A stretch of 64,000 nucleotides of DNA from Antedon mediterranea (taxonomy: Eukaryota; Animalia; Echinodermata). The notes under the pieces were generated by a model. It did no database searches and was not told where the DNA came from. It was given only the letters and a program-made list of their open reading frames with translations. Below, piece by piece: positions 3,639-41,677 of this stretch. A program made the position numbers and the translations under genes. Every line of letters begins with the position of its first letter. Positions within the stretch are counted from its first letter, which is position 1. The stretch covers positions 15,977,881 to 16,041,880 of the forward strand of contig NC_092678.1 of assembly GCF_964355755.1 (NCBI RefSeq). Direction: 5' to 3'.

Positions 3639-3958
3639 ACTACCAGGGTGTAAACAAAAGGTATTTTGATCCCTAGACTGTGAACACTTTTTATAATTTT
3701 CTTTTTTATCTATTACTACGGCATTGCAAATATAGATATGTTTTATATCAATTTACATGTACATGATAGCTACTCGCAGATGGCGATGGTTATCCAATGC
3801 TACGCATATTTGTATTTGATGTTCTCAAGTGTAATTAATGTTAATGTTATCTTTAATTTTATTTTTTTTATTTTGAGTATCGCATTTTATAGACTATTAA
3901 ATGTGTATGTTTTTATACCCACGGTAATGGAAACGGCTATACAAAACCGGACCCCGCT

Positions 3959-6900
3959 CACAGCTGTTTCACCAATGTAAAATAAATAGAAAAAGTCAAG
4001 CGCCCTCAATATTGTCAGACGGCGATATGTGCCTGAGCGTGACGCCGCGCGAGTGGTTGAATCTCGTTCAACTTTCGCGACATTTGCAACTTTTATAACT
4101 ACACTTTAAATTAATTTAATCAATTTCGTCATAAATATTATAAAACCATTTTTATACTATTTGTTAGAAAATAAGATTTTTAATTACCGATTTTTTGGAA
4201 ATAGTAAGTAATTAAGCATAACACCAAGTTTACGAAATTATTTACACCCGGAAGTTTTAAAAATTAACATCGATCGGCCTAGCAAATGTAAACAATGGAA
4301 AGTTTGAAAAAATGCTTGTCAAATTGTACACTTTTTGTTTTTATTCGTAATTTTCATAAATACTTGGAAAATCTAGGTAAAAGTTTGATTATATATGCTT
4401 ACATGAGACATTGAATTGTTAGGAGGTGACGGTGAAAATCTCAAGAAATTTTCATTTAAAAACTCGACTGTTTTGTTAAATGCGAAACAGCGTATTTGGC
4501 GAGAGGTCGATGAACGCGGCTGATAACCGCTCGCTAGGCTGTACGCAACTAGGCCTAGGTTGTAGCTAGGCCTAGTTGGTACGTATAAGTAGTGTAATCA
4601 TGCTATACATCATTTTAATTTACAATAGATTAAATAATAAGCTTAATTATTATCATTGTATTTATTTCAACTGAATATAATTCATCATACATGTACAAAT
4701 TTAGTAAAACTACTAACTACCAGGCCAGGCCTAGCTAGGCCCTTCAAAATTAAAGCCTATACAAAAATACTCAAACTACTGTATGATAAATATAATATAA
4801 AATTAAAGGTTGGTAAAATTAAAATTTCTTTTCATTTTTGTAGGCAACACAGTTTCACGAAAAGGCTTTAAGTTCTACTTGCTTCTGTTGTGGAACAAAA
4901 TTTAAAGAAAAAGATAAAAAATACAATTTAAAAAATATGAAAACCATCACAAATTTGCACTAAATCTAACAAATGTAAAATTACAACCTATATACATTTA
5001 TACAACCTGCCATTCGCGAATTTTCAATGGATACTGTATACTACCACGCTAACATTTAAATTAACAGGGCATGGACCAAATTGCTTGGCATGCTACACTT
5101 CAACAACAACTATGACCTGGGCCAAAACTACATTCACAAGTGAAAGAACACACTGGCGTTTAAGGGAACAGTTTTTTGTCTGGTACAGCTGCTCCATAAT
5201 CTGCTTTTCTTATATCTTCACTCTTTTTGAAAGTTTATACTAACAAATTTAATTAAATGAACATACCTCATAATCAAATAACTGTTTTCTCATCCTAATT
5301 TATATACATAGTTTAAAAAGCGCCAATTTTCAATTAAGACTACATCATACATTGTATATTTCTATTCAACAAAATTGTCAGAACTTTCTATTATTTAAAT
5401 GTCTAAGATAGTCCGATCTCGGGTCCATTCTACAGTCACCACAGATTGACTTTTTCATCACAAAATTTCTGAAATTATAAAATGTATTAATGTGTCAATT
5501 AAGTATTTTTTAATTACATAAAAAATATCATACAAGTATTTTTAGCAGAATACAGGCATATTGCACCAGGTGTAATACAGCCTAAGCTACATATGCTTGA
5601 GCACCATGCTATTGCATTCATGAGAGAATGGAAGGTGGTCTCTGAGCAAGGCGGGGAGACATGCCAAACTCAACCGTCACAAAACAGCAGTGTGGATTAG
5701 AGTCAAACTTAGACTCATCTGACTTTCACATCTCCAATGATACAAAATGAAATAATAAAACCCAACAAATGCAAGAAAGCCAACAAAGAATGATTCATTA
5801 ACATTAATGATCATAAAATATTGTACATTTTTAAATGTTAAAGGAATATTGCATTGTATTGATTTCCTTTTAACAATGCCTAATAATAATGAATATGTAA
5901 AAGTAATACTATAGTATGTCTATATTTCAATTACTAACTAATTACTATTGATTGATAGTACTACTGCTGTACATGTGTTAGTGATTGATTGTTAAAGTTA
6001 CAAATTCATAGCATGGTAAACACAATTTAAAATTTACTAGTTCTTGAACAGTAAAATAAACTTACCTATATGGTAGGTATAGGTATTGGTCCAAATCTGT
6101 TTAAAATGTTTTAGCCATTTTGGGTTGCCGCTATATATGTACCTAAAAAATAGTAATAGTATAACATTATAATAAGAATTAATTAAAATTAACTTATTAA
6201 ATTTACTATGGTTGCATACATACTAATTTGAATATGCAGTGATGAGCAAAAACAAATGTTAAAATTCATTATTTATAATAATTGTAATTATTACATACAG
6301 GGTAGGCATATATGCCTTATGTCATTGCATAGGGTATATATAACCAGGTATCCTCATAATAAACATTATTTGTAATAAATACTGTAAATATATTAAAAAT
6401 AAAAATTAATAATAATTAAATAATAATAATATATAGGCATAGAGCCTCTATGCCTAATTAGGTAGCCTACTAATACCTAGCCTATTGCTCTAGGCTAGGC
6501 TAAATAAGCTGGAAAGCTGCTTCTCTGTAAGCTACTAGTGCAAGAGAGCACAGGTCTAGCTAGTATATTAAAATAAAAATAGGGCCTATAATATAGGCCT
6601 AGCCTACCCAGCCAGTGGTAGTGATTGGTTGTTAATATTGAAAATTAATAGCATGGTAAACACAATTTAAAATTTACTAGTTCTTGAACAGTAAAATAAA
6701 CTTACCTATAATATAGATGGTAGGTATAGGTATAGGTCCAAATCTGTTTAAATGATTTTTCCACTTCCGGTTGCCGCTATGTACCTAAAAAATAGTAAAA
6801 CATTACTATAAGAATTAATTAAAATTAGCTTATTAAATTTAATATGGTTGCATACATACTAATTTGAATATGCAGTGATAAGCAAAAACGAATGTTTAAA

Positions 6901-9184
6901 TTCATTATTTATAATACTGTAATTGTAATTATTACATACAGGGTAGGCATATATGCCTTATGTCATTGCATAGGGTATATATAACCAGGTATTCTCATAA
7001 TAAACATTATTTAAATAAAATACAGTAAATATATTAAAACTAAAAATAATAATAATTAAATAATAATATTTAGGCGTAGAGCCTAGACCTAATTAGGTAG
7101 TCTACTTATACCTAGCCTATTGCTCTAGGCTAGGCTAAATAAGCTGGAAAGCTGCTTCTCTGTAGGCTGCTAGTGTTAGAGAGCACAGGTCTAGCTAGTA
7201 TATTAAAATAAAAATGGGGCCTATAATATAGGCCTAGCCTACCCAGCCAGTGGTAGTGATTGATTGTTAATATTGAAAATTAATAGCATGGTAAACACAA
7301 TTTAAAATTTACTAGTTCTTGAGCAGTAAAATAAACTTACCTACTGTATATAGATGGTAGGCTGCTAGGTATTGGTCCAAATCTGTTTAAAATGTTTTTG
7401 CCACTTCGGGTTGCCGCTATGTACCTAAAAAATAGTAAAACATTATTATAAGAATTACTTAAAATTAGCTTATTAAATTTAATATGGTTGCATACATACT
7501 AATTTGAATATGCAGTGATGAGCAAAAACGAATGTTAAAATTCATTGTTTTTAATAATTGTAATTATTACATACAGGGTAGGCATATATGCCTTATGTCA
7601 TTGCATAGGGTATATATAACCAGGTATTCTCATAAGAAACATTATTTAAATAAATACTGTAAATATATTAAACAAAAATTAATAATAATTAAATAATAAT
7701 AGGCCTATATAGGCGTAGAGCCTAGCCTAATTAGGTAGCCTACTTATACCTAGCCTAATTGCTCTAGGCTAGGCTAAATAAGCTGGAAAGCTGCTTCTCT
7801 GTAGGCTGCTGCTAGTGATAGAGAGCACAGGTCTATCTAGTATATTAAAATAAAAATAGGGCCTATAATATAGGCCTAGCCTACCCAGCCAGTGGTAGTG
7901 ATTGATTGTTAATATTACAAATTAATAGCATGGTACACAATTTAATATTTGCTACTTCTTGAACAGCAAAATAATCTTACCTATATAGATGGTAGGTATG
8001 GTCCAAATCTGCTTAGCCACTTCAGGTTACTGCTCTATATATTATATGTATCTACAATAGTATAACATTAATAATTATTATAACAATTTTATAAAATTAA
8101 CTTAACTTATTAAATTTAGTATGATTGCATACTAATTTGAATATGCAGTGATGAGCAAAACCGAATGTTAATATGATGCTTGTCATTATTTATATTGTAA
8201 TTATTACATACACTTTACAGGGTAGGCCTATAATATTCCCTATTGCATACATGTTACATAGGGTATATATAATCCTCATAATATTAAATTTACAGTTTTT
8301 GTAATGAATACTGTAAATTTAATAAAACTAAAATTAATTATAATGATTAAATAATATTAAAAATATATAGGCCTAGGCGTAGATCCTGGGCCTAATTTTA
8401 ATTAGGTAGCCTACTAATACTAGTATTAGGCTAGTAGGCTAGCCTACTCAAGGCCAGGCTAACTAAGCCGGAAAGCTGCTTCTCTGTAGTAGGCTGCTAG
8501 AGAACACAGGTCTAGCAAGGGCCTAGGCCTAGTATTAAAATAAAAATAGGGCCTATAGTATTGGTATATGCCTAGCCTACCCAGCCAGGCCTAAATAATT
8601 CAAATAATGTAACATTTCCAAACTCATTTGGGTCAGCTGTCACATGAAAGGCAGTGTTGCAACTAGAGTAGACACAAGCCTAAGCCTAAAAATGACACAA
8701 TTTGAAACGGCCATAGCTCAAAAATTCAACCATCACCTCTCGACCATTACTATGTTATAACATTCACAGATAACTAAATTATCATGCAGTACCAAAGAAT
8801 TAGAGTGAAAATTAGATTTTTTAAAGATACGGACAAACAAACATGTACCTAATTTGGAAATGTCACTCACGTGCGTAAATTGGTATATGCTTGTATTTTA
8901 TGGTCCACCCTTCCATTAATTTTCAGCTTTACATTCCTTGTTAAAAACAAAACGACAACGTGCTTGTTTCATCCAGGGACTCTTTAATGAATATTCATAT
9001 TTTTACCGACCCTTTATTTTTTTATCTCATTCTCATTGGCTGTTTAAAACATGTCTTTAAATGACATTTGACTCCACTCTGCACACGTGGATTTGTAAGT
9101 AATTGTTTATGTATTGTTACTCCAGCGATACGACTTGTAACGTTGAGGGCGCATGACTTAATTCGTATGTTTGAAACAGCTGTG
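3959..9184 (+). mobile_element. Internally deleted Chapaev/N-RAG-TP-like (RAG1-related) DNA transposon
   Basis: Perfect 13-bp terminal IR CACAGCTGTTTCA...TGAAACAGCTGTG, 4-bp TSD CGCT. Transposase remnants FHEKALSSTCFCCG (~4855), HGPNCLACY (~5070) and IQPKLHMLEHHAIAFMREWKV (~5575) are homologous to the 27884-40281 element. Confidence 0.88.
5980..8590. repeat. About 4 tandem copies of a ~640-bp unit rich in TAGGCCTA/CTAG motifs, inside the transposon
   Basis: Anchor atagcatggta(a)acacaattta recurs near 6008, 6648, 7283 and 7925. Confidence 0.9.
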
Positions 9185-9344
9185 CGCTAATTATTTGCAT
9201 TCTTAACATATACTATTTATTTCCATCAGATAACGATGTACAGTATCTATAACGACGTTTATGATCTCAATTGTTATTATCTCGCTGATATAACTAAATG
9301 TATAATAATAACGCAGACAGTAATAAAACCACTAAAAAATAAAT

Positions 9345-17552: not shown

Positions 17553-19129
17553 TTGGTTATCCGCAACTTAGTTGCAGGATAACCCATGTGATTGTAAATA
17601 TCTTTTTTTTCATCTTCTTTGTTATTCTTTCTTTCCCGGATTTTGTGACCAGCATATCTCTATTGCTTGTGAACATAACTTTGTATAACTTGGTAAAAAG
17701 ATTGACATTGAAGGGTAGATGTGCAGCCAAGCTTTTGGACGATGTCAGATACGCGTTGCGTAAGTTACGCGCGATTTTATGAATTTATATAACTGATCAT
17801 AACTTTAGAACCAACAAATATTGTTTCATGAAACTTAATAAAATTATAATTCATATCATGAGTCAATTTTCTATGGATTAAAAATGACATGTTTTACAAG
17901 AAGTTACGCGCGCACGCGCATTTAAAGTTTCAAAATGCGCAAAATTAATTTCTAATCAACTTTCTACGCTGATCATGACATTTTGAGCATGTCAAAAATT
18001 CCCGCGCGTGCGAAAAAATTTACGCGTATGGTGCGCACGGTGCATGAAAATCATGTTTTTTTCTCTTGAATTATGATTTTCCATCCTTTCCTAGTCATTT
18101 TAAAACAGATTGACATCATTTCAAATAAAAATGACGTCATACGAACACGTTGATTTAGACAATTTGCGTGCGTTTTAGTTGCAAAAAAGACAAAATATTG
18201 TCAAAATTATGCCTACTTTGAATCTATTATAGCTCCTCAGGATCAACCGTTACCCCCATTTTTTAAAATTTAATATGTAAGCAGATATGTTGTAGATATG
18301 AATTCATGCAGAATCTTTACCCCTCGGATGTTATGACGTCATCGTATGGCCACACAAATGTAAAATATTGGATTTTTTACTGTTTCGTTATTGCTCATTA
18401 CATTAAATAGAGCGCATATCGCTTATACGTATTCCATTTCCTCATATATTTTAATACTGTCTAGGTCAATCAACTATCTCTCGCATGAGTTAAAAATATT
18501 TTAATTTTTATGACGTCATCATGTCTAAAAATGTAAATAACGTGGGTCACTTATTTTTATCTTTACAGTAAATTTCAATCGGTTATAGCTCGTCAGAGTT
18601 ATAAGTGATAATCATTATTAAACGTTTTCTTGAAGCTATTGGATTGTAGATACGAATTCATGTGAATATTTTGTCAATCAGATGTTGTGACGTCATCATA
18701 TGGCCAGTTGAATTCAAAAAGTCATATTTTCACCTCTTGCGTAAAAGTTCATTGCGTTTAAACGAGAGCGCATCTCACTTTTACGTGACCAAAATTCTTT
18801 AAATTTGTATTAACGTAATTAATTAGATAATTATCTTCTAAAATTGTTATTTTTATGTCAATTTGATGATGTCATCGTGTTAATAATTGGATTTAAAAGA
18901 TGGGTCTCGAAATTCCGTCTATGCTACACTGTATATAACATACAGTGTATTCTGTAAATACTGTAACATGATGTATGCTACAAAATAGGTACAATTCAGC
19001 ACTGTAAACATATTTATTTCATGTCATAGGATGGCATAATAATTGTCGAGGTTTATATAGTTTAAAGTATGTGCATGTTGCGTATGCGCGGATAACCCGA
19101 ACTCGTCAAAGTGACGAGTTCAAATCTAG
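17553..19129 (+). mobile_element. Helentron-type non-autonomous element, family C
   Basis: Starts TTGGTTATCCGCAAC..GTTGCAGGATAACC; ends GCGGATAACC + GAACTCGTC-AAAGT-GACGAGTTC + CTAG. Confidence 0.75.
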
Positions 19130-20710
19130 TTAGGTGATCATTTAGAATAAAATGATCACCTATTGTTATTGTATGAAATCTTTATTCTTATTCTTATTAT
19201 TTATTTCTCTCTGTACAGATTTTGTGTAACAAATATCTCAAAAAGTTTAATGTTAATGATTACCAAAATTTCACAATGTCTTTCAAATACGTTAACTTAG
19301 TCCTAATAAGCTTTTCAGCGTGATCACTCATCCGTGACGTCACGTATACGCCATTTTGTGAAATCACATTATCAATCATATCTCCATAATTCATTATCAC
19401 ATATTAATGAAAATCACTACACGTAAACTTGAGGTCAAGATAAAAAATATTAGCAAATAAAAACTCGGGCGTTTCAAGGTCATGCGCGTGAAATCGCGCG
19501 TTGAAATTTTAAAAAGCTCAAAATTTAGTTTTTATCAATTTAGAGCATGAAATAGGCCATTTGCGTGTTTAAAAAATTACTGCGCAAAAACACATTTTTG
19601 CGCACGGGATTTTTAAAAAGGGTAAAAAATAAAATTTAATGTATACATCATATTCTACTCACAATCCTTAGTACATTCTCCGACTTTGAGTCCATTCCGA
19701 CTTAAAATAACGCTATACGAGCACGTTAAAAATGACAAAATGCGCACATTAATTGTACAAAAGTGCTAAAAATGGTAAAAAAATAAGGCCTTTTTAAAAT
19801 GAATATAACTCTTCAGAATGGCAGGTGACCCCCAATTTTTTTAACTTATTATGGAAGCCAATAAGTTGTAGATATAAATATATATACATATTAGACGTAC
19901 AAAATGGTATGACGTCATCAAATGGCCACTTGAATTTAAAAATTAGTAATTATTATCTTTTTGTGTGGGTTATCACATTCAATAGAGCGCATCTCCGTTA
20001 TTTGAGCCCAATTTTTGCACACATTTTAGTATGTGCTTGCTCAATTAATTATCTTTCTCATAAGTTGTCAACATTTTTATTTTGATGACGTCATCACGCG
20101 TAAAAACTTGAATAACCTAGGTCGTGTAATTTCAGCTACACCATACATTTGAATATCTTATAGCTCCTCAGAATTAAAGGTGACCTTGAAGATTATAATT
20201 TATTATGAAAGCTGATGAAATGTAGATATGAATTCATATAAAAATTAAGCCTATCGGATGTTGTGATGTTATCATATGGCCAGTTGAAGTTAAAAAGTAG
20301 TTTTTAAATTTCTTTAGTCGAAGTTATACAAATTTCAAAGAGCGCGCATTGCGCTTCTACGTGTCAAATTCTCTTCCAATCCTTATATTTATTTGCTCAA
20401 TTCATTCTCTTTCGAAATTGTCATCTTCGAGTTTATTTTGATAATTCCATCATACCAAAAAATTTGAACTTGATGTGTGTCCCATAATTTCACCTATGCT
20501 ACACTGTATATAGATAATATACAGTATATACTGTACATTGTATGGCATATAATAGGCATTACTCAGCAATACAAGCGTATAATAGGATGGCATACATCAA
20601 CATTTTCCTATCGTATGTTAACGTACGTACATGTTTAAAAAAAAATTAATTTCATTAAAATGATAAAAATGATCACCTATAATTCGTCAAAGTGACGAAT
20701 TAAATTCTAG
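19130..20710 (+). mobile_element. Helentron-type non-autonomous element, family A, complete inner copy
   Basis: Same termini as the outer copy; body nearly identical to 20711-22247. Confidence 0.78.
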
Positions 20711-22530
20711 TTCTTATTCTTATTATTTATTTCTCTCTGTACAGATTTTGTGTAACAAATATCTCAAAAAGTTTAATGTTAATGATTACCAAAATTTCAC
20801 AATGTCTTTCAAATACGTTAACTTAGTCCTAATAAGCTTTTCAGCGTGATCACTCATCCGTGACGTCATGTATACGCCATTTTGTGAAATCACATTATCA
20901 ATCATATCTCCATAATTCATTATCACATATTAATGAAAATCACTACACGTAAACTTGAGGTCAAGGTAAAAAATATTAGCAAATAAAAACTCGGGCGTTT
21001 CAAGGTCATGCGCGTGAAATCGCGCGTTGAAATTTTAAAAAGCTCAAAATTTAGTTTTTATCAATTTAGAGCATGAAATAGGCCATTTGTGTGTTTAAAA
21101 AAATTACTGCGCAAAAACACATTTTTGCGCACGCGATTTTTAAAAAGGGTAAAAAATAAAATTTGATGTATACATCATATTCTACTCACAATCCTTAGTA
21201 CATTCTCCGACTTTGAGTCCATTCCGACTTAAAATAACGCTATACGAGCACGTTAAAAATGACAAAATGCGCACATTAATTGTACAAAAGTGCTAAAAAT
21301 GGTAAAAAATAAGGACTTTTTAAAATGAATATAACTCTTCAGAATGGCAGGTGACCCCCAATTTTTTTAACTTATTATGGAAGCCAATAAGTTGTAGATA
21401 CAAATGTATATACACATTAGACGTACAAAATGGTATGACGTCATCAAATGGCCACTTGATTTTAGAAATTAGGAATTTTTATCGTTTTGTGTGGGTTATC
21501 ACATTCAATAGAGCGCATCTCGGTTATTTGAGCCCGATTTTCGCACAAATTTTAGTATGTGCTTGCTCAATTAATTATTTTTCTAATGAGTTGTCAACAT
21601 TTTTATTTTGATTACTTCATCACGCGTAAAAACTTGAATAACCTAGGTCGTGTAATTTCAGCTACACCATACATTTGAATATCTTAAAGCTCTTCAGAAT
21701 TAAAGGTGACCTTGAAGATTATAATTTATTATGAAAGCTGATGAAATGTAGATATGAATTCATATAAAAATTAAGCGTATCGGATGTTGTGATGTTATCA
21801 TATGGCCAGTTGAAGTTAAAAAGTAGTTTTTAAATTTCTTTAGTCGAAGTTATACAAATTTCAAAGAGCGCGCATTGCGCTTCTACGTGTCAAATTCTCT
21901 TCCATTCCTTATATTTATTTGCTCAATTCATTATCTTTCGAAATTGTCATCTTCGAGTTTATTTTGATAATTCCATCATACCAAAAAATTAGAACATGAT
22001 GTGGGTCCCGTAATTTCACCTATGCTACACTGTATATAGATATACAGTATATACTGTACATATTGTATACGACACATAATAGGTACAACTCAGCACTATA
22101 AGTATATATGCATCATGTCATAGGATAGCGTACATCAGCTTTTTACGATCATATGTTAACGTACACGCATGTTTAAAAAATGTTAATTTCATTAAAATGA
22201 TAAAAATGATCACCTATAATTCGTCAAAGTGACGAATTAAATTCTAGTTCCTATTGTTATTTCTAATCTGAAAGACCTACAAACCAAAAATATAAAATGT
22301 AATAGGAATTTGACTGAAGAAATGATTTGCACATTTGTAGAATACCTTTTGCACATTTAACGTCAAAACTGATCGTTTTTACTTTTTGCACATGTCACGG
22401 CTCCACAAGGTCTTAGCCAAGATGTAAGATAGATGTAACACCATACTACTGATTTGATACGAATTGTATAATTGTAACATAATGCGAAATGTTCCTAACC
22501 ATGCTAGTAGTGGTGCAGTTATTAAAGAAT

Positions 22531-27337: not shown

Positions 27338-29282
27338 CTGAAAACCGTTAAAAATGAAACAAATATTTATATGTATAGTATTGCCCCTTTTACACCGCCA
27401 GTAAAAATGCAATTGATCCGGAATTGTATAACCCGAGTCGTACCCGGGACGCAAAAATGCGGAAATGTAGGACAGTGTAAACGACGTAAAAAGTTACCAG
27501 GGTCGCTGAATTACCCGGGTAATTGATGCGGAATGTATTCAGCGTCAAGTCAACCCGGGACGCACCCAGGATGAACCTGTGTTTGCGGTGTAAAACGCTC
27601 AGTGTATCTTTACCCGTTTGTTTACTATCCTTGCTCACTATAGTATTTAATTTACATAAAATTAGGATAAGATTGATTTTGTTTATTCGCTTATTCAATA
27701 AATTAAACTTATGGTTATTTGTTATTCATTTTTATTTCAAGATAGTATTCTTCCCGAGTAGACTTAATTTGTGTGTGTATTGCCATAAAACAAAATTGTG
27801 GGAGGTATAATGAGCAGACCGTTACTATGGTGTCTCTTCATGCGTGAGAGGGCGATATTTCGATTGATTTAGAACATTTACACCACAGCTGTTTCAACTA
27901 GTGTTAAGATATCAGAAAAAGTAAAGCGCCCTCAGTGTTAGCAGACGACGCTCTCCGATCCGCGCGAACTTATGAATTTTGTACACAAACCATTATTTCG
28001 CGAACGCCAAATTAAATTTTGCTACCGTTAGTTTTTATGTAGAAAACACATTTTATATAAAACCAAACGATTAAAAAAGTTTATGTTCAATTAAAAAATC
28101 AATATTTTATTGTTTCTTTAATATAAATTAATAAATAAACGACGATATTGTCCATTTTACTGATATAATCTCCCACACATAAACCAGGAAGTCGATATAA
28201 ACTGTGTAATGAAATAGTAAACAATCGTAAGTATAAAATATCATTGTATTCTTAACTTATTTTTTTGATATAATTCATTTTTTTAGAAAAAGATCGAACT
28301 AGAATATAGGCCATCATTATTATATAAATAAAATAATACAAGTTATGTTAATATAGCCTGGTTCAGTTTTTAGTAAAACTCGCATATTTTGCAACCCCTT
28401 TATACATTGTTATTGTTATCGGCAAGAAAACGGTTTGGCGACAGGCTTAGAAAGTGCGTTGACGCCGGCGATAAACTTGACAGTAATGTGGGCCTAGGAT
28501 GAAGCTAGGCCCAAACATAGAAAATTCGTAGTAGTAAAACCTTTAATTATCCTAATCCTAAATTTAATCATTATAACTGTTATCAAATAATTAATGGCAT
28601 GTGTTTATAATAATAATTATTGCTTTTCTGGTGCATTTTTAGGCTAGCTGGTGTGACTGAGTGACAGTCATTACTGTAACTATACTACTATTATAGGCCT
28701 TTATAAAAATTACACATACAATTACAAATATATTTCACAGATAAGCTGCGGAGCTATTTTTATTTAAAATTTTTTATATTATATTTTATTTCATATACAG
28801 TAATGGAGTTTCACGAAAGGGCATTGAGTTCCCTTTGCTACTGTTGCGTGAAAAAATTTAAAATAAAAGATGTAAAGTACACTTTTCAATTCAATTCACA
28901 TTTATTTACTCATCGTTTATAAATACAGTTTCATAGCATAAATGATGGCAAGGATCCTGCATAGAGAAGTTTACACTTCTGTTTTTGCAGGACCCTTTTA
29001 CATAAAACAATAAACACAACATAATAGATACAAAATAAAAAAAAAACATTTCCTATATACATTTTAGAGTTGTTCATCATCAAAAAGCGATACTGTTTTT
29101 CTAACATGATTATTTATACATTTTGTATTAAAAAAGAAGATATTCAGTTTATTACTTCCAGTATACATGTGGATTCTTTCTATATATATTATAGCAAAAG
29201 TATGAACACATATAATATAAAACAGTCTATGTGTGTACACTCGCACACACCAACACAAATGCATAATATATGCATCTATATT

Positions 29283-32200
29283 TTATGAGTGAAATCTGTA
29301 ATTCGATAAAATGTCTCTTTTTACATATTTTTTTAGTATTTTATAATTGTTGTTAACAATATCTAAGTGATTTCTACAGAGCTCGTTCCATAGTTTCGGT
29401 CCGTGAATACTGATAAAATGTTGACCAGACGTTAACCTAGAGTATGGTTGTTTTACGCTACAAATATTTCGAAGATTATGGGTAGTATTTTCGTTTCTTT
29501 TGAATATCATTTGGATTCGTCTGGGTAAAACATTGCTTTTAATCTGGGCCATGAAACCTAGGTAACTCTGTTGATATCTTGTATGTTAAGTATATTTAAT
29601 TGCTTAAACAGTGGCTCAGAATGTTGCCATGGCTTTTTAAATAAAATTATTCTAGCAGCCTTTTTCTGGAGTTTAAGAAGGGATTCTAGTGTACTATCAT
29701 ATGTACTGCCCCAAATAATGTTTCCATACTGAAGGTGCGGTAGAATTAATGTATTATACAAATTTGTTAAATTATAATTAGGAAAAAAATGTCTAGTTTT
29801 TATCAATATTCCAATAGACCTAGCGGTTTTTTTGCTAATAAGCCTTATATGATTTTTCCAGCAAAGGTTCTCATTTATTACAACCCCAAGAAATGTTACA
29901 TTTTTTTGTTGTTCTAAAGTAATGTTATTCATTTTCAATTCAATGTTGGTTGTAATAATACGCCTTTGGGCAGTTTTAAAGATTACGTAATTTGTTTTGC
30001 TGGTGTTTAATAAAAGTTTATTAGCTTTGAACCACATATTAATTCTATCTAGTTCCACATTCATAGTGTTTGCCAATGCGTTCAGGTTATTTCCACACTT
30101 GAATCCTGTTGTATCATCGGCAAAGCTAATTAATTCAATTTGTGTACTTGAGTTACATATATCGTTTACATATACAAGAAACAACAAAGGTCCCAAAACG
30201 GACCCTTGTGGAACACCAATACTAGTCTCCTTAATATTAGACGAAGTACCATTTATAAAAACATATTGCTTTCGTGATTTTAAGTAGTTACTGAACCATT
30301 TTAGTGTAACACCTCTTATACCATAGTGGAATAGCTTGTTCAGTAATATACTGTGGTCAATAATATCAAATGCCTTTGACAAATCCATAAATGTGGCAAT
30401 TACGAACTCTTTGTTTTCAAATGCCTTTAGTATTTTGTGGATCAGATCAATTATAGCGTGGGAGGTTGAATGATTGTTTCGGAAGCCGTATTGCCAATCA
30501 TTTAGTATATTGTAAGTTTTAAAGTAATTATACAATCTGGAATGGACTATCTTTTCAAAGATTTTAGAGAAAATTGGTAGTAGTGATATCGGGCGATAAT
30601 TCGAGGCTAAATGACGGTCCCCTTTTTTGTATATGGGAATTACTTTTGCAATTTTTATCTGTTCCGGTATTGAGCCGGAGTGAAGAGATACGTTAAATAT
30701 ATAAGTCAAGGGCTTTACAATAGCATCACCAACTGCCTTGACTACCTTTGGTGAAATATCATCAAAACCAGGTGTTTTGTTTGCATCAAGTGATTGAATC
30801 ACTTTTAACACTTCCTCCTCATTTACATGGTAGAAAAACATAGAGTTACTTTGCCTGTTTAGCAGGTAATCAGAGTATTGTGCCGTTGATGGCTCAATAC
30901 TGTCTCGTACCTTGAGACCAACATTAATAAAATAATCGTTAATGTGGTTTGCAATAGGCTCACAACCCTCTATGAGTTTGTCACCATATGTAAAAGTGGA
31001 TGGAACATTATTTTTGCCTCCACCTGGATTTATAATATCATTTATAATATTCCATGTTTTTTTTTATTTCCTTTAGTATTGTTAAAAACATTTTCATAAT
31101 ATGATTTCTTTGCCTTTTTGCATGTACGCATAAATGACTTATTAAACTCTTTATAAATATCCTTATTTTTAGACGAGGGATGTTTTATAAATTTGTTGTA
31201 CAACACATGTTTTCTTTTGCTAGACTTTAAGAGTCTTGAGTTCATCCATGGTTGTTTGAACTTTTTATACTTTTTGTGATTTTCTTGAACTTTTTTTTTT
31301 TTTCAAGTTTTTATTATATAATTTTTTGAAAGTGTTGATAAAAGCATTGTAAGCATCATCAGCGTTTGTCCTTACATATACATCAGCCCAATCAACAGGT
31401 AATAAGTCATTATATAGTTTATTTATATTTCTTTCGTTTATTGCATATTTATGAGGTTCTATATTACCGGTTTTTACTTTAATATGTTTGTCGGGCACGG
31501 AGTGGATAATTTGGTATACCGGTAAATGATCAGATATGTCTGAGATTAGTATACCAGATAACATTTGTTCAGAAAGTGTGTTGGAGAAAATGTTATCAAT
31601 TACTGAAGATGTGTTGTTTTGTATTCTAGTGGGTCTTGAAATCGATGGGTAGTAGGAATGCGACATCATTACTTCTAGAAAATTATTTACAAAATCAGTC
31701 GATGCATGCTTAAGTAAATTAATGTTAAAATCACCCATAATGTGGCATGATTTTCCCTCGATATCAATAGTATTAAGAATATCGTCTAGTGATCTAATAA
31801 AAAGTTCTATATTCGAATCGGGAGGTCTATATATTATACCAACAATCGTATTGTTACATTTTTTTTCAATTATTTCAATAAAAATACATTCACAAGATTC
31901 AATAAATAGATCTTTTCTTTCTTTTATGTCAATTGTAGCAGAAACAAACATACCAACTCCCCCTCCTTTACGGTTCTTCCTATCTAATGCGAGGAAGTCA
32001 TAGCTCGGTAAATATGGTTTGCACGATGTATTGTTTAACCATGTTTCCGATATACCAATAACTGTAAAGGGGTGGTTGATTAAGTTTAAGTATGTAGTTA
32101 GTTCATCAATGTGTTTATTGATGCTTCGAATATTATAGTGAAGAAATGAGTAGCCAATATTTTTTAATTTCTTCACAGATTCATTCAAGTCATATGGACT

Positions 32201-32362
32201 CATATAAGAACATGTCTCAATAGCATTTAGCTTGTTTCTGAGACTATATTCAATGAATTCGTCATGGTCATTATTACCATTATCAATAGATATTGGATTA
32301 AATAGTATATCCATTGGATTTGATATTTCGTTTTCATCACCGTTATTTTTATTGTTATCCAT
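29283..32362 (-). pseudogene. CR1-group ORF2 (APE + RT), broken by homopolymer frameshifts and one stop
   Basis: Motifs NIRSI, ISETWL, GDFN, SDHLP, DLSKAFD, GVPQGSVLGP and FADD across four ORF pieces; breaks at T runs near 31060 and 31300, stop at 29558. Confidence 0.9.
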
Positions 32363-32491
32363 GCTTTGATTTTGTATGTTTATTGATTGTATTTGTCTAT
32401 AAAAAACTATTTTAATTAATATAATTTATGATACTATGCTTATGTCTACTGCTTAATTTCAGTTACAATAACTTTCTGAATTTGTGTTACC

Positions 32492-34051
32492 TTACAATTG
32501 TTGAAATTTGTGGTAACGTGGTCTACCTCTTCCTGTGTTAGCTTTTCTGCGAGATAGACCTAGAACGTTTTCAACTTTGTATCTGACATTACTGGCCAAT
32601 AGGCTGGTGCCTCCATCTGATAGATGGTATCCATCAGGTGCTAGAAGTTTGTCGACCAGCTCGCCGTTTCGTAAGAAGTTGCTATTGTCGCAGAATGTTA
32701 GGTTTGGTATTTTTTCTGTGCGTATCTTGTGCTTTATACATGAGTTTGCTATTTCAACTCTGAAATTTAGTGGGCCTGCTCGTGGTAAGCCAAGTGATAT
32801 CAAACATTTAGTGTCTGGATGTTTTGTGGCATACTCACTGACTGTGTTGTATAGCGTTTCTGCGCACTTTTCTGGAGCTGATTCCTTTACAGAGTTAGTT
32901 ATTTCGTGGATTACTATACAGTCAAGTGTTTCGTGTATTCCATCGAGTGCATTTCCAATTTGGTCATTAGTGTATGCGTGTGTAATGCTTACATCTGCTT
33001 TTGGTAAAATACGACTTGCTTCGACTTTTTTTAAGTGCAAATTTCCTAATAGTAATACAGATGGTTTCTTGCTTTCGTAGGCTCGATGTGTGTCATTATT
33101 TTTCATTAGACTTTCTGCATACGACAATTTCTGACTGTCTTTTTTTGAGTTAACAGTTTGGAAGTCTGATGCGTCGATGGCTACCTGGGTTCGTTTTGCT
33201 TCGTACGCGTACTCCCTTGCTTTTTCTGTTTCGTGTATTGCTGTCTGTAGTTTGTCCTGGAGATTTGTTATTTGTTTATCTTTCTGCAGGATCATATCGT
33301 TGTTTCGCTTGACATCTATGAAAGAATTAGCTGTTAGTTTGTTTTCTCTTTCTGTTTTATTGATTTTTTCTTTCATTTTTTCCATTTCTACCCTTATTTC
33401 TTGTAGGCCGGTAGCGTTGGGTTGTCTGTTGTTTTCTGTGTACTTTAGCTCCTGTCTTAGGAGTTTTATTTCAGCCTTTAGTTTGGTGTTTTCAATGAGG
33501 ATGTTGTTACTTTCTTTTAGTTCATGTCGCAGACATTCTATTTCTTTTTTCATTGACTCACTGTTTATGAGAAGTTGTTTTTTTTCCTGGGTCTTGGTCA
33601 CTTCATTGGTTGAATCAGGTTTCTTTTTGGTCAGCCTTTCATCAATATATCTTAAACGTTGGTCAAATACTAAGATAGTCTCTGTTAGAGTTGATAGTAT
33701 GCTAGGAATACGTTTGCACACTAAGCATATCCATGGGCCTTTTTTTCCTTTTGCGTCTGCACATGTCCTGTGGTACTGCTTTGAACAAAGAGTACATGCT
33801 ATTGTGTTTTCGTTTTTTCCTGTTGAATCACACCCTGCTATACATTCTATTGTGCCTCTTTCTTCCACAAGATATTGTTCAAGTTTATTTTTAACTGGAT
33901 TTTGTGTGGTAGAGACCGGTGACAGTATCGGAGGCGATTTCGTTGAGTTGTTGTAAACAGGATCTGGAGAAACCGGTGATAATACCGGGGGCGATTTCAT
34001 TGATTGAAATAATTCAATCAAGTCAGCGCTATCATTTGGTGACAATGCCAT
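32492..34051 (-). CDS. CR1-type ORF1: PHD finger + coiled coil + SGNH/GDSL esterase-like domain
   Basis: CIAGC..CTLC..HRTC..WICLVC PHD pattern; long heptad region; VLLLGNLH, ITN and DGYHLS esterase blocks. Confidence 0.85.
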   Translation of the reverse strand: MALSPNDSADLIELFQSMKSPPVLSPVSPDPVYNNSTKSPPILSPVSTTQNPVKNKLEQYLVEERGTIECIAGCDSTGKNENTIACTLCSKQYHRTCADAKGKKGPWICLVCKRIPSILSTLTETILVFDQRLRYIDERLTKKKPDSTNEVTKTQEKKQLLINSESMKKEIECLRHELKESNNILIENTKLKAEIKLLRQELKYTENNRQPNATGLQEIRVEMEKMKEKINKTERENKLTANSFIDVKRNNDMILQKDKQITNLQDKLQTAIHETEKAREYAYEAKRTQVAIDASDFQTVNSKKDSQKLSYAESLMKNNDTHRAYESKKPSVLLLGNLHLKKVEASRILPKADVSITHAYTNDQIGNALDGIHETLDCIVIHEITNSVKESAPEKCAETLYNTVSEYATKHPDTKCLISLGLPRAGPLNFRVEIANSCIKHKIRTEKIPNLTFCDNSNFLRNGELVDKLLAPDGYHLSDGGTSLLASNVRYKVENVLGLSRRKANTGRGRPRYHKFQQL

Positions 34052-37000
34052 TGTTTGTGCTTGCTTAGGTGTGACGACCGCGTTTGGATTTGAACCTTGA
34101 CGATCAAGATTATGTTGTTCAAATTAAGTAAAGCTTTAGAAAAAAACTCAGTTACAGCACTTTTTTGTATATAAAATAGTATTTTAGACGGTCGTATAAC
34201 AATCAGCACTAGTTGAGTTGTAGTTTGCTTTGTAGACGATATAATAAATCGCGAAGTTTAAGCCTATGCAATACGTAGTCCACCGTACAATAGGCCTACT
34301 TGGCTCGTCTTGGTTGGCGTCCCTAGTTACCGGTGGGTTGCAACCAATGTACTTGTGGCGCGAAGGCCTAGCTGATCAAGATTTTGAGAAGAATGGTTTT
34401 GACTTACAAATTATAGATTTTTGTCGTTTTCTTCAATCAATAACGATTTTTTGTTAGTTTATGCGCTGTTTCACGTCAAATATATCCAAAAAAGCCGGAA
34501 ATTAGTCCCTTTTAGAGTCGGTTTGGTGTAGAGAAAAAAAATCGGATCTTTGCTGTGTGACGCCACCCTTATGAATATAATTTGGATCCAAATCTTAAGT
34601 GGCTATGTGGAAGCTGTCACGTTAGCGCACTTGGTGGACACAACATAACACCATTTAATTTCAAAGACCATGGAGACAAATGCTTAGCGTGCTACTTATT
34701 CAGTCAACAATCAAGACCTGGTCGAAGGCTGAAGAAATGCAAGTTTCCCGAAAACAGAAGCAATACTACTGGCAGTTTTATTCCCACTCATGAGCACTTG
34801 CTACTAAATCCTCAATTTAAATTTTTTAAAAATTACGATAATCAAGTGTATGAATGTCAGATATGCAATAATGTGTCAACATTTTTTTTGTACATTTTGC
34901 ATAAACAAATTTTTTAAGGCAGTAGGACGAGAATCAATTGATTGTTTTAACTGCAGCCAAATTATCAGTAACAAAGATCTCAAACCAGTTCCACTTATTG
35001 TAGAACACTCACTTAAATAGTCCCTTTGCAATGCAAACAATGTAAAATTCAATTAGTTTGGTCAGAAACCCCCAATCATGTTTGCAAAACGTTTAAAGAA
35101 CAGGCATTCACCAAAATTTTAAGTGCAGTTGAAGAAATTACATGTACTGCCCAAACAAATGAGGTTTGGCCAAAAGAATTGAAAAGCATGGCACACAACA
35201 TAGTACGGAAAGACTTTATGAATAATAAGAAAGTGTCACTTATGACTCGAGGACGGGTGAGTTTTTTAACCCATTACAATTAATTTAAATTTATCATAAT
35301 GTAAGCCTACACTCTGGATTCACTCATTATACATTATTATTTGATAAAATCATACAAATATTTTATTTGATCAAATTCAGCCAATAAACATTGTTAAACA
35401 ATCAGAGTGCACAACAACTGTTAGTGTTACCAGTACTGAAGAGAAAATGGACCCCCAAAGATGTTTGGAAATCATGAATGCCTGCCGCATAAATTGGAGC
35501 CAGCAACGAGCACTGCGGAGGTAATTTATTTTATTATTGCTTTTCGTGTCGGGTATGTGGACCTCCGTCGGGCCACACAGCCACTGTTTACTATTATTCA
35601 GTCAACAGTTTACTTTTTTTTTAATTGAATTTAGAATACTATAGAAAACTATAAAAACTATAATTAATCAGTACTGTATATATTTTGGCTTCTGAAAGAC
35701 AAATGCGCATTTGCCAAGAACAGATTATCGGTGATCACATAGTAGATTCTATGGAATACATGTTTGTCAAACGAGATGGAGCCACATCTAAAGGAGGTCT
35801 TGTTTTAGAGGAGGTTGCAGTAGTCCGACTAACCAAAATCAAAGAACTAATCTATGACTACCTAAACAAATATGATATGTATGTAACATTTTTTGTTGTT
35901 ATTTTTAAACAAACCTATTTCATACATCAGTACTGTATTATTGGCACAAATTATATATACTATAATATATCGCATGTGGTATAAATATAAGAATAAAATA
36001 ATTACAAATCTAGTCAGGGAAGACTTAAATTATATTTAATTTTGTAACAAGCAATTTTAAATTTTGTAGGTCTGATGAATTGAACTTCTTCAAAGATGGA
36101 GACATATTTCTCAAGTTTGGAGGAGACAAGGGTGGTGATACCACTAAATTTGAAGTTCAAATTTGCAGTTTACCTAAACCCAAGGCACTGCACAATATTA
36201 TTGTCATTTTGGCATTCCAAGCACCAGATTTTATAGTTAATGTCGAAAAAGGCTTGAAACTGGTTCTTGATGAAGTCATGGATTTAGATGGAAACCAGTG
36301 GACCTCACCAAAGACCAAAAAGTAATATTAAATACAGTAGTATAATATTGGAATGAGTAACACTGACTTAAGTATATAGCAGAGCTACATAATTATAATA
36401 TGCAACTTAATTTGAAAATGTTACATAATTTGTATATCTTTAATTATGATTAATGTAATTAATTAGAATTCATGGTAATTGAATGAAAATAACTACTCAT
36501 TTTACAGAACTCACAATATCCGCCTATTTTTTTGGGGGGATTATGATTTTTTATCAAAGGTATATGGACTTGTTGGCCCAAATGGTAAGTACAATTTCCA
36601 GTTTCAATACAATTTTTTTTTATATTTTGGCTATTAGCTCTCATTGTTTGGCATTTGTTACACAAAACTGAAGTACTATATATATTATGTAGATTTAAAA
36701 ATTGATTTTTTTAAAGGAAAGTACAGTTGCATCTATTTTTTTTGTAATCAAGATGACATTAGAACCAACAATGTTCCTCAAGCCTGTAGATGTCTCAAGA
36801 CCTACAATCGTGACTACAAGTCTTTTGTAGACCATGGGAGTGACAAAAAAAAAAGCAAAACAATATCGCACAGCGTTGTTAGGCCATACCTGGTAGACAT
36901 CGAATTAAACAGGGTAGGTAAATAATCATAACAGCACAGGTCCCCAGTGTTTATGTTAGGTTAAATTCAAAATTAATTAAAATCTCAATTTAGAAAGTTT

Positions 37001-38879
37001 AATACACACTCCAAACAATGAAATGTGTGTTTGTACTTCCATATTAAATAACAATGTTAGTATAAAATAACTGTCAAAACAAACAATTGTTACAGTAATT
37101 TATAAATATACCTCTTTATAAATATTTCCTCAACTATTTTTCCAGGTGTCAATACCAGCATTACACATTTCTCTTGGGTTGTTTAAGAAACTCTATGATA
37201 TGCTGGAAAAAGACGTGCACAATCTTGATGTTATAATTTTTAACATGCGACAGGATGGTGACATCTTGACTGGTAACTTCAAATGTTGTTTCAACTTTAC
37301 ATTGACATTAAATAAACTCAATTGGTCAAGTTGCTTTTTAAATATACAATGTCTCTTTCAGCATAGAATTCAGTAAATTTCGAAATTGTTTATCCTGTTT
37401 TTATGCATAATAAACAAACCTTTGGCTGAAACTTATTTTTCTATGAATTATCCATATTATCATTAACATTTTTTAAATATACTAATTTTGATGCTCATTT
37501 TTGATGCAGATTGAAATTTATTTGATTGACCAATATTGTTTAATCTCAGGTGATCATCTAGCAGACTTTTAGAAAAGCATATCAGAAGCTGCAGCGCATC
37601 GAAATGCTACAATGATTAAAATCCAGTCTTTAGAAGAGAATCTTGAGGATTTAAGAAACGAGCTCTCAGTGTCACTTGTGACAAAACAGCATAACAAGAT
37701 TGCAGAGATTGCAGAGACTGGCCACAGAATAAATCTGAAAGAACAAGAGGTCAAAGACTTGGTCAGTACTACAGTATACACCTTTAACATTTAAAATTAT
37801 GTCTAAAATATACAATACTATAAAAATTAATGCTATATTTCTTTTATATTTATATAGCGAAGTACTATGAAACAAGAGATAAAATTTGGAACTGGACCTC
37901 TATGTACAAAAATGGACGAGGTGTTGAGGAAGAATAAAATTCCTCGACAGCAGTACCACGGAAAGAGTTTTGTGGGAAACCATGTATACAGAGCATGCAA
38001 AGTGAGTAACTAAAATTTCTAAAATGTGAAGTTCGTTAATTTTTACACAGCAAAATAAGTAATAAAATTAAGAATTATTTGCGATTGACTCTCGCCATAC
38101 TGTAAATGTATTATTTTAAACTATTCATTTTATTTTTAGTTCAACATCATAGAAAAGCTCATGGATGGTGTCTCAATGACTTTAAAGCAACAGATACATC
38201 ACTGTCCTACAAACTGTAAGCAACTGCTTGAAACAAAATTGCACAAGATACAGGAATCATTTACACCTGTATTCAAAACCTTTACTAATGTCCATGAATG
38301 CATAAACCATACGAGGCGCATCACTGATTCAGAAATAGATCAATATGGTAAGCAAAAACTGATGACCAAATTATGTGAATTTTGTCTGGTTTTATTTATT
38401 CTTAATGTGTGATTAATTTCTTCAAACATCTGTATAATTTAAATTCTCATTTATAAACTTTCTTGTTACATTAAAATTTAATTCATGTTTTTTTGTCATT
38501 TCAAAAGACAATACATCTTTCAAATAAAATGTTAAAATTTTTTTCACAAAACAGAAACCTACATACAACTGTTCTCCAAAGAATACAGACGCATCGCTCC
38601 AAATGTGATTCAACCAAAATTGCACATGTTGGAGCACCACACAATACCGTTCATGAGAGAATGGAGAGTAGGAGTTGGACTCTTAGCTGAGCAAGGCGTC
38701 GAATTAATCCACTCTGAATTTAATCGCCGGAAAAGGGCGGTATATGGATTAAAGAGCAACCTCGACCAGCTTATGTCAATCATGAAGTCACATCTGACTT
38801 TTATTTCACCCGAGATCCAGCATGAGGTGACTAGGCCCAAGTGCAAAAAAGTTGAGGAATAGTTTGCTATTTCTCACTC

Positions 38880-39425: not shown

Positions 39426-41677
39426 ATATCTAATGTCACAGTACTCTATAGCTTCTTTCTATTAATATATTACACCCCCGAGAACTTATCTTTGACTAAG
39501 GAGGTTTAGGTAGGCTGCTAGGCCTTTAACCTGCTGATGATGTAGCCTATATTTTATATATAGTATAGGCATGTAGCCTGACCTACTGTAGTGTAACTCC
39601 CATCCCAATATGATTTTTTAAATATCTTAGGCCTAGCTAGGTCCTAGGCTAGGCCTCATTATTAATTAGGACCAGGCTAGCCTACTAGAAACAGCTGTAA
39701 ACTGTCACTCAGGCCCCAGAACAGACATGTTTACCTGTTAAAAATACACAGCCATTAGTCTTACACAGCTGGTTTTAACCACGCAAGGGGGCCTGGGCCT
39801 AGCTAGCATAGCAAAACATCCAGCCAGGCAATATGGATACGAACCTTGTTAAAACATTCAAGGATAACTAAAGTATCCAACTAAATCAAAGAATTCAACA
39901 GAAAAAATTATTTTTAAACTGATATGGAAAAAAACATTTATACCTACTTTTTAAATGTATCACTTGAGAAAAAAACTGGCGTTGGGTATACAATGTTGGT
40001 TAACTTTTAGTTAGATTTCCTTTGAAAATCCACGTGATAAACCGACATCAACATCTTTTTCACCTTCATCCAGGGTTGTTCTAATGAATATTCATTATTT
40101 TTCTGGCTTTCGCGGTTTTTATTTGATTTTATTGGCTATTTAAAATACAGTCGTTTTATGCTTGATCGCTTCCGGGTACCTCGTGTGGTTTGTATACAAT
40201 ATGTTTTCGGAATCGCTACTCCATAAAACGATATGAACGTTGGGGGCGCTACACTTAATTTGTATTTCTGGAACAGCTGTGACACGGGTTTGGAATTTTT
40301 CAGTGTAAATACACGCAACCCATGTCATTCCCGTGTTATGAATCGGGTGTGAAAAGGAAATTTATCCGGACACGACACGGGTTTGTTATAAGCTCGGCGG
40401 TGTAAAAGGGGTATATGTCTACTAAGGGACAGTACGATCAAGGATTATTTATTTGTATTCATTTCGGAACAACAATGATGACATCAAAAAACTAATATTG
40501 TGACAAAAAAGGCATACAAGTATAAAGCCAGTGTTAGTAGTAAAATCTGGTTGAATGACAACATAGTTAACCCTAATACAAATTTCTGCGGAACAAACGA
40601 CTTTGACCTAAAATAAAATCTGACGAATAGTAACAAAATGACAAATGAAAAGCAATTAATATACCTCAGATTTATGAATAACAACATCTTTCGATAATTA
40701 TAATTAAATAATTAAATCTCAATGTTATAGAAATCAAAAAAGTTGAAATAAAAAAAAAGTGTATAGCATGGTATAAATGAGGATCTCGACAATCAGTGAA
40801 GTAAACGGATAATATGTATTCGTCAATGATGGACATGTATCTGTAGAAGAAGACGGATACAAGAACAGTAGTAAGGATGAATTCTCATACGATTCTTTCC
40901 TTCGTGCCGATGAAATTGATACGTCCTAAGCCCACCTTACCACTGTAGTAACGAAGGGATAACGCTATAGTATAGAGGAAGATAGTAGCAGTATTTGATT
41001 TTTGCCAATGAAATTAATATATCATAAGTTTGCCTAACTACGAATGGATAACGCTATATACGTGTAGGGCCTATGTACCACACTATTGTAGATTTATTTA
41101 TTTTATTTTCAATCATTCTACATAAAAAAAAAACATAGGCCTATAGTATAGTATAACAGAGGAGTAGCGGAAAAGCAAAAGTAATAAAACTGTCATCTTG
41201 TGATGTGCTTGAATAGCCCCTGAAAACTAAAACGATAAAATAAAACCAAAATTATAACAATAAATATAGAAAAAAAACATAGAAAAATATTCTATTTATA
41301 ACTGCTAATAAAAGTGTTACAATATAAAAATACAATTGCCCTCAGAATATTCTATAAAAGTTAAAAATTCAGAGTAAGGTATAATCTAAAAAAACATGTA
41401 CATTTGCATAACCTTTGGTTTATAAAATATGAAAATTTACAAATCTATAAAATGTTACTTTAAACTGTGTTTAAACTTTAAAAAAACGACTCTCCAATAA
41501 GTTTATTTCTGATCGTAACACAGTTGGAGAAACCGTACTAACCCTGAGTAAAAGTATCAGTACGGGCTCTACCATAATAAAAGGTAAGTATATATTGGTG
41601 TCGGTTATTAACTAAAAAAAGAACAAACAGAATCAACATAGATACCAGATGCCTCTCATAACGACGTTTTCGTAGTC

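What the first reader, a model, noticed from the sequence alone, without database searches (positions are those of the whole stretch)
27884..27935. RSS-like bipartite ends with 23/13 and 22/13 spacer asymmetry in two diverged elements
Left end: CACAGCT, 23 bp, AGAAAAAGT, 3 nt, GCGCCCTCA. Right end (reverse complement ending 40281): CACAGCT, 13 bp, AAATTAAGT, 3 nt, GCGCCCCCA. The element at 3959-9184 shows 22 and 13 bp with the same boxes although the spacer sequences differ. A conserved difference of about one helical turn between an RSS-heptamer-like end (CACAGTG) and an A-rich nonamer-like box parallels the 12/23 rule. That the asymmetry is functional is an inference.
Basis: partly seen in the sequence, partly recalled or inferred. 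Interest (0 to 1): 0.85.

Follow-up and report, generated by a model that had tools for sequence, protein, structure and literature searches.

The report
Long/short transposon ends without RAG's ruler
Two jumping-gene copies, likely from a feather star and distantly related to the antibody-gene cutter RAG1, have one end about one DNA turn longer than the other, as RAG's signals do, yet their enzyme is predicted to lack the domain that measures this difference in RAG, and whether the mismatch is used to pair the ends is untested.

Summary
The elements are Chapaev transposons, not RAG/Transib. They have 4-bp TSDs (confirmed by an empty site), CAC..GTG termini, Chapa-like/RING/DDE motifs and a RAG1 fold at about 15% identity; no RAG2-sized ORF was seen. 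An intact 890-aa enzyme of this family is annotated in Antedon mediterranea. The one-turn offset recurs in both complete distant Chapaevs found (22/12), and 12 of 18 lone ends fall into a short or long class. Such asymmetry is published for Transib and RAGL; I found no Chapaev report in 10 searches, but Repbase Reports was unseen. This scan noted it before in two other genomes. New here: this family's enzyme keeps the GRP motif but lacks the three nonamer-binding helices that enforce the 12/23 rule in RAG1. A strict rule is doubtful: the right 'nonamer' matches the RSS at only 3-4 of 9, and sister families switch the right end between long and short. A soft long+short preference is inferred, not shown.

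The parts
27880..27883 (.). E2 left 4-bp target-site duplication (ACAC)
   Evidence: empty site with a single ACAC in runs X1 and X6 (joint 27883 to 40290)
27884..27935 (+). E2 left (long) end: 12-bp tip 27884-27895, A-rich box 27914-27922, GC box 27926-27934; 23-bp spacer
   Evidence: length fixed in assembled copies
28803..38862 (+). Multi-exon Chapaev transposase gene, broken in this copy: LINE insertion, frameshifting deletion in the RING exon, one stop codon, second Cys of C(2)C replaced
   Evidence: exons match the intact 890-aa Antedon protein P0138; DUF1280
28882..34567 (-). 5686-bp non-LTR retrotransposon inserted in the first transposase exon (ORF1 with weak PHD hit, endonuclease and RT ORFs); secondary, not part of the transposon
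   Evidence: copies without it in 3 of 4 runs (joint 28881 to 34568)
35242..35520 (+). GRP motif across an intron (exon ends 35256, next exon 35381-35520) followed by only about 20 residues before the dimerization/DNA-binding domain: the NBD helices are missing
   Evidence: same short form in RefSeq models P0133 and P0138
40240..40281 (-). E2 right (short) end: tip 40270-40281, A/T box 40253-40261, GC box 40241-40249; 13-bp spacer
40282..40285 (.). E2 right TSD (ACAC)
3955..3958 (.). E1 left TSD (CGCT)
3959..4008 (+). E1 left (long) end; 22-bp spacer; A-rich box 3988-3996; GC box 4000-4008
4850..5781 (+). E1 transposase remnants (N-terminal zinc motif and C-terminal H..H..E part); internally deleted, non-autonomous
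5975..8588 (.). E1 internal tandem duplications of a unit of about 640 bp
9144..9184 (-). E1 right (short) end; 13-bp spacer
9185..9188 (.). E1 right TSD (CGCT)

Best explanation
These are the left and right ends of two Chapaev cut-and-paste transposons whose RAG1-fold enzyme likely grips the 12-bp CAC tip with its catalytic core and likely reads the inner A/T + GC box, placed about one turn in on the right end and two turns in on the left, so that a long and a short end would be favoured in the paired complex. Shown: the ends, the 4-bp duplication, the fixed left spacer length, the same offset in two distant Chapaevs, and the enzyme's motifs. Predicted: the RAG1 fold and the lack of NBD helices. 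Inferred: two enzyme subunits synapse one left and one right end, cut at the CAC tip and insert with a 4-bp stagger. In most Chapaevs an NBD-like three-helix module would read the inner box. In this feather-star family only the GRP motif on a short floppy tether remains to do so, perhaps held in pairs by the upstream RING/zinc-finger dimer. The pairing would be a preference rather than RAG's strict rule.
For: 4 of 4 elements with both ends are long-left/short-right: E1, E2, and L041 and L015 at 22/12. Their enzymes lie on separate branches. The tip and boxes are conserved while the left spacer sequence is not. The left spacer has no common length variant in runs X1, X5 and X6, and differently spelled spacers keep 22 or 23 bp. 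Box offsets among 23 non-redundant ends peak at 0-1 and 10-11 (17.3, 19.7, 18.9, 16.2 against shuffles 6.8, 12.0, 7.4, 7.0) with troughs at 5-6. 12 of 18 lone candidate ends fall at spacer 11-14 or 21-24 (shuffle mean 5.0; 3 of 5000 reach 12). RAG1 fold: Z 23.7, rmsd 3.6, 457 aligned. An NBD-like module is present in typical Chapaevs, including L041 and L015. ProtoRAG prefers its unlike pair of ends (PMC8289069, passages).
Against: No activity data. Four complete elements represent three lineages; if each end were long or short at random, three unlike pairs would arise 1 time in 8. Right ends are long in 7 and short in 5 lone cases. Sister families L027 (23) and L034 (14) differ by a 9-bp indel at the same end, and their left ends are not held. 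All 3 lone left-end candidates fell outside both classes. The spacer windows were chosen, and some test ends are kin of the training ends. The family's enzyme lacks both the NBD helices and the CCGHC tail known to bind distal DNA. RAG1 without RAG2 shows no 12/23 preference (PMC8355894, passage), and no RAG2-sized ORF was seen here. The right end was not examined copy by copy.
Confidence: 0.5

Rival explanations
1. Helical phasing without a pairing rule: each end binds the enzyme independently, the inner box works at one or two turns because both lie on the same face of the DNA, and which end is long is a historical accident copied with the family.
For: Two spacer classes one turn apart. The right end switches class between sister families with 76.5% DNA identity. 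P0138 has no dimer-forming NBD helices to couple the two ends. Some Transibs have symmetric ends (PMC1131882, PMC9435367).
Against: No complete long/long or short/short element was seen (0 of 4). The roughly 10-bp difference recurs in Transib, AanRAGL and PflRAGL-A.
Confidence: 0.3
2. A vestige in this lineage: the asymmetry mattered to an ancestor with a full NBD. The feather-star enzyme now uses only the 12-bp tip, or these ends are moved in trans by another, full-length Chapaev enzyme.
For: The NBD helices are absent in P0133, P0138 and E2. ProtoRAG needs only the first 16-17 bp for cleavage (PMC7204232, passage).
Against: The boxes are far better kept than neighbouring DNA between E1 and E2 (left 20 of 21; right 8 of 9 and 11 of 12, against 6 of 26 just inside), and spacer length holds while its sequence changes. 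No full-NBD enzyme of this lineage was found, but those searches are weak for absence.
Confidence: 0.15
3. A true RAG-like or Transib transposon whose ends are RSS precursors read by an NBD.
For: CAC tip at 5 of 7 to the heptamer, left box at 6 of 9 to the nonamer at 22-23 bp, GRP motif, RAG1 fold.
Against: 4-bp TSD rather than 5. About 15% structural identity to RAG1 and only E=6e-4 by profile to ProtoRAG. DUF1280 and the LH motif, no RAG1 core Pfam hit. No RAG2-sized ORF.
Confidence: 0.04

Closest known systems
Chapaev transposons (CMC/CMCT clade; Kapitonov and Jurka 2007, not seen; described in PMC4079192, PMC4411706, PMC12730594, passages)
   Same: CAC..GTG termini, 4-bp TSD, DDE with C(2)C, LH and H(4)H, N-terminal zinc (Chapa-like) motif and RING, single gene
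   Different: Bipartite long/short ends were not found described for Chapaev in my searches. This family's enzyme lacks the NBD-like helices that 13 of 14 full-length homologs have. One relative (L041) has a 5-bp TSD.
Transib families with asymmetric TIRs (Transib5, Transib2_AG, TransibN1-3_AG, PMC1131882; subgroup I Transibs, PMC9435367)
   Same: CAC heptamer-like tip, A-rich inner box, ends that differ by about one turn, single RAG1-fold enzyme
   Different: 5-bp TSD; no Chapa/RING domains; in the K&J families the 5' end is the short one, here the long one; no GCGCCC box noted there
RAGL transposons: ProtoRAG (27/31; PMC8289069), AanRAGL (4/13; PMC9435367), PflRAGL-A (10-bp offset; PMC10462144)
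   Same: Conserved tip longer than 7 bp, second conserved block, length asymmetry, N-terminal zinc and RING domains
   Different: They encode RAG2L, make 5-bp TSDs and carry an NBD and a CCGHC tail; this enzyme has no NBD helices and no such tail
RAG1/2 and the 12/23 RSS
   Same: Core fold (Z about 24), RING/zinc dimerization domain (1rmd, Z 10.8), GRP motif, one-turn offset
   Different: Offset 9-10 bp rather than 11; right box not nonamer-like; extra GC box; no RAG2; NBD bundle absent; rule untested

Membership tests
Chapaev | 5'-CAC ... GTG-3' termini | tested here: met
   all four ends
Chapaev | 3-4 bp TSD | tested here: met
   CGCT and ACAC; empty site for E2
Chapaev | DDE with C(2)C, LH and H(4)H motifs | tested here: met
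   P0138 motifs at 400, 477, 497, 564, 812, 834; the window copy has the second Cys replaced
Chapaev | N-terminal Chapa zinc domain | tested here: inconclusive
   H-x3-L-x3-C-x2-C at residue 4 fits the pattern in PMC1131882; homologs P0009 and P0012 hit PF12560 but P0138 does not, and this part of its model has low pLDDT
Chapaev | RING finger after the Chapa domain (two subgroups) | tested here: met
   PF00097 E=7e-06, above cut-off; 1rmd Z 10.8, rmsd 2.9, 104 aligned
Chapaev | Groups with named Repbase Chapaev transposases in a tree | not testable with these tools
   no Repbase sequences available; the tree has no named references
Transib / RAGL | 5-bp TSD | tested here: not met
   4 bp in both elements; TSD length is labile in Transib (10.64898/2026.08.26.747230, passages), so not decisive alone
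Transib / RAGL | Core sequence similarity to RAG1 of about 25-35% | tested here: not met
   12-17% over structural alignments; best profile hit 6b40 at E=5.7e-4
RAGL | RAG2L gene inside the element | tested here: not met
   no ORF over 69 aa wholly inside the 1.4 kb 3' of the gene; none of 70 aa or more listed in the 0.8 kb 5' of it before the first exon; a spliced or decayed gene was not searched for by profile
RAG / RSS system | Nonamer-binding domain (GRPR plus three helices) | tested here: not met
   GRP present; 26 residues against 69-80 in 13 of 14 homologs; no helices between 272 and 290
RAG / RSS system | Nonamer consensus at both ends | tested here: not met
   left 6 of 9, right 3-4 of 9
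RAG / RSS system | Cleavage restricted to a long+short pair | not testable with these tools
   needs biochemistry

The most novel reading that the evidence does not exclude
The long/short end design predates the split of Chapaev from Transib/RAG, and this feather-star family still pairs a long with a short end using a RAG2-less enzyme that has lost the nonamer-binding helices. The asymmetry behind the 12/23 rule would then be older than, and separable from, the domain that enforces it in vertebrates.
Probability: 0.22. Interest if true: 0.8.

Novelty: new variant of a known kind. Interest (0 to 1): 0.52.

Why it matters
The origin of the 12/23 rule is debated: Transib 'seed' (PMC8355894) against RAGL-A ends (PMC10462144). 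Finding the same one-turn offset in Chapaev, a more distant branch than either, suggests it is ancestral to the whole group. The intact single-gene enzyme P0138, naturally without NBD helices, CCGHC tail or RAG2, set beside full-NBD Chapaevs with 22/12 ends (L041, L015), gives a ready natural pair for asking what is needed to tell a long end from a short one. If symmetric pairs work equally well, the finding shrinks to a descriptive note on Chapaev ends.

Tried and rejected
No whole genome is held, so the genome-wide tabulation of ends could not be done. A strict end pattern in viral contigs gave 1 hit, inside a GC-rich coding-like stretch, rejected as chance; in genome contigs it gave 0. The transposase alignment found no relative in viral contigs (4 candidates) or genome contigs (28 candidates). 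P0002 had no PDB sequence hit. No RNA holder listed. A plain inverted-repeat scan of 37 of the 76 loci gave mostly chance pairs. An early reading that L014 shows a short left end in a long-right clade rests on the Gibbs run only; the held-out profile placed it elsewhere, so a full polarity flip is not claimed. The Gibbs score (122 against 100-112 in 8 shuffles) used fewer iterations for the shuffles and is not relied on. Read depth (ends far deeper than the core) was not used as copy number. The likeness of the GC box to the AanRAGL CCTCAA box was noted but not tested. The Atlas look-up pointed to DUF1280 and RAG1 clusters and adds only a lead. The absence of NBD rows alone would prove nothing; the claim rests on sequence length.

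Full report
Observation. The four ends are as described. A pattern joining the tip to the GC box matches the window 4 times, exactly at these ends, and never in 100 shuffles. Aligned on GCGCCC, each end has a 12-bp tip, a spacer, a 9-bp A/T box ending in AAGT, 3 free bases and a GC box. Counted from the 7-mer, the spacers are 23/13 (E2, 27884-40281) and 22/13 (E1, 3959-9184). E1 and E2 share only 66-78% identity in the few alignable parts. The boxes are kept (left 20 of 21; right 8 of 9 and 11 of 12), the 26 bases inside the right boxes are not (6 of 26), the left spacers are about half identical, and the right spacers 6 of 8. The RSS likeness is partial: heptamer 5 of 7, left box 6 of 9, right box 3-4 of 9 (consensus from PMC1131882, passages).

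What the elements are. Both are flanked by 4-bp duplications. For E2 an empty site with one ACAC stands as a joint in 2 of 4 runs, and as loose ends in a third. E2 holds a multi-exon gene from 28803 to 38862, interrupted by a 5686-bp LINE that other copies lack in 3 of 4 runs. Its exons match P0138, an intact 890-aa protein annotated in Antedon mediterranea, so the host is likely an Antedon feather star. The window copy is dead (LINE, frameshift in the RING exon, a stop, a lost Cys), and E1 is an internal deletion. P0138 has the DDE, C(2)C, LH and H(4)H motifs that PMC4079192 (passages) lists for Chapaev, together with CAC..GTG ends and 3-4 bp TSDs. It also has a RING finger and DUF1280. Its model matches RAG1 at Z 23.7, rmsd 3.6, 457 aligned, 15% identity, and HzTransib at Z 21.6. 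It is therefore a Chapaev by every feature I could test except the Chapa domain (inconclusive); no named Chapaev reference was available for a tree.

Is the spacer fixed? Contigs laid on the left end of E2 cross the spacer without gaps in runs X1, X5 and X6; X10 covers only the box. The one indel in the spacer is +2 in one contig at depth 157 of 12350. Loose ends show other subfamilies with different spacer sequences whose lengths fit 22 or 23; for one of them only the last 30 of 32 letters were displayed. Contigs drop rare variants. The right end was seen only, where 12 of 268 indels were shown and none lay in an end.

Is it wider than this family? A metagenome scan gave 76 loci with related enzymes out of 290 candidates. 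Both ends were found in 2 of 76. L041 has the tip CACGGCTGTTTC and the box AAACTTAGT at 22 and 12; L015 also has 22 and 12. I picked 27 ends by tip likeness and position and dropped 4 near-duplicates. Among the 23 left, shared boxes are offset by 0-1 or 10-11 bases more often than in 60 shuffles, and less often by 5-6. That set left out the distant candidates in L069, L070 and L074, a second candidate in L035, a duplicate of L025 (L042), and hits in the wrong orientation. A profile trained on the 8 ends of complete elements put 12 of 18 lone candidates (now including L069, L074 and both L035 ends) at spacer 11-14 or 21-24, against a shuffle mean of 5.0 (3 of 5000 reach 12). The windows were chosen after and some ends are kin, so the test is not clean.

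Results against a strict rule. Of those 12, all right ends, 7 are long and 5 short. L027 (23) and L034 (14) are sister families (100/99 support; 76.5% identity over 848 nt running to the end) that differ by a 9-bp indel in the right spacer. All 3 lone left candidates fell outside both classes. Four unlike pairs from three lineages are weak evidence by themselves.

The enzyme. In RAG1 the NBD dimer pivots to fit a 12 and a 23 signal and enforces the rule (PMC10462144, passage). Typical Chapaevs have a matching segment: 69-80 residues from the GRP-equivalent position to the next domain in 13 of 14 full-length homologs, and also in L041 and L015. In the model of P0007 it forms three helices (366-410) that align into the RAG1 NBD in 10 of 31 RAG rows. 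P0138 has 26 residues there and no helix, and aligns from mouse residue 459-461 onward in all 31 RAG rows. The same short form is in P0133 and in the window's own exons, whose intron leaves no room for more, so it is a family trait. The sea-star model P0004 is also short (31), but I could not check its DNA. P0138 has no CCGHC tail. What remains is an RGRP motif, which resembles an AT-hook core (recalled, not tested), on a low-confidence tether.

Mechanism. Most likely (0.5): the core binds the tip, the tethered motif (or the NBD-like module in other Chapaevs) binds the inner box one or two turns away, and a long+short pair is favoured but not strictly required. Cutting and joining are inferred from the fold. 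Rivals: phasing without pairing (0.3), a vestige or movement in trans (0.15), a true RAG/Transib (0.04).

Novelty. One-turn asymmetry is published for some Transibs (PMC1131882, passages and section 11), for subgroup I Transibs and AanRAGL (PMC9435367, whole main text; supplement searched by terms, no 'Chapaev'), and for PflRAGL-A (PMC10462144, passages). ProtoRAG has 27/31 (PMC8289069, passages). I found no description for Chapaev in ten searches, nor in passages of PMC4411706, PMC4079192, PMC3014272, PMC12730594, PMC7204232, PMC8355894, PMC4455052, 10.1101/100735, 10.1101/2021.09.26.461848, 10.64898/2026.08.26.747230 and 10.64898/2026.01.24.700457. The 2007/2008 Repbase Reports, Repbase entries, figures and preprint supplements were not seen and may already show it. 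Two earlier notes of this scan report long/short Chapaev ends in other genomes; they are unchecked and not counted as evidence.

Verdict. A real feature and a new variant of a known kind. The asymmetry extends a known Transib/RAGL trait to Chapaev. The loss of the NBD helices in an intact enzyme is the part a specialist would not expect, and it makes the rule testable. Interest 0.52.

Noticed in passing
window 2754-3638 and 9336-13016 (+): E1 sits between what look by eye like ORF1 and ORF2 (endonuclease + RT, split by one stop) of an L1/Tx1-type LINE (label recalled), which supports its boundaries as a clean insertion.
   Followed up: no
L041 30-34 and 6201-6205: A complete 6166-bp Chapaev-type element with a 5-bp duplication (AGTTG), the Transib/RAG length rather than 3-4 bp. 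L015's flanks match 3 of 5 in that register.
   Followed up: partly
L027 ~800-848 and L034 ~1450-1491: Sister families whose right ends differ by a 9-bp indel, one long and one short.
   Followed up: partly
P0004 (Asterias amurensis): A second Chapaev-type protein with a short NBD segment (31 residues); it could be a parallel loss or a gene-model error.
   Followed up: partly
window 27926-27935, 4000-4009, 9143-9152: The GC box continues CCTCAA/CCTCAG, like the inner CCTCAA[C/T]A[C/T]G element of AanRAGL (PMC9435367); may be chance.
   Followed up: no
window 27784-27883 and 40282-40381: E2's target site is itself a multi-copy repeat in the laid runs.
   Followed up: partly
window 46559-49058: 2.5-kb element with 96-bp, 99% inverted ends around a 528-aa ORF (47367-48953, minus strand) that looks integrase-like by eye.
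   Followed up: no
window 13491-15877: Element with 153-bp inverted arms and inner 16-bp tandem repeats in both arms.
   Followed up: no
window 18200-21850: Tandem units of about 1526 bp with 354-bp sub-repeats.
   Followed up: no
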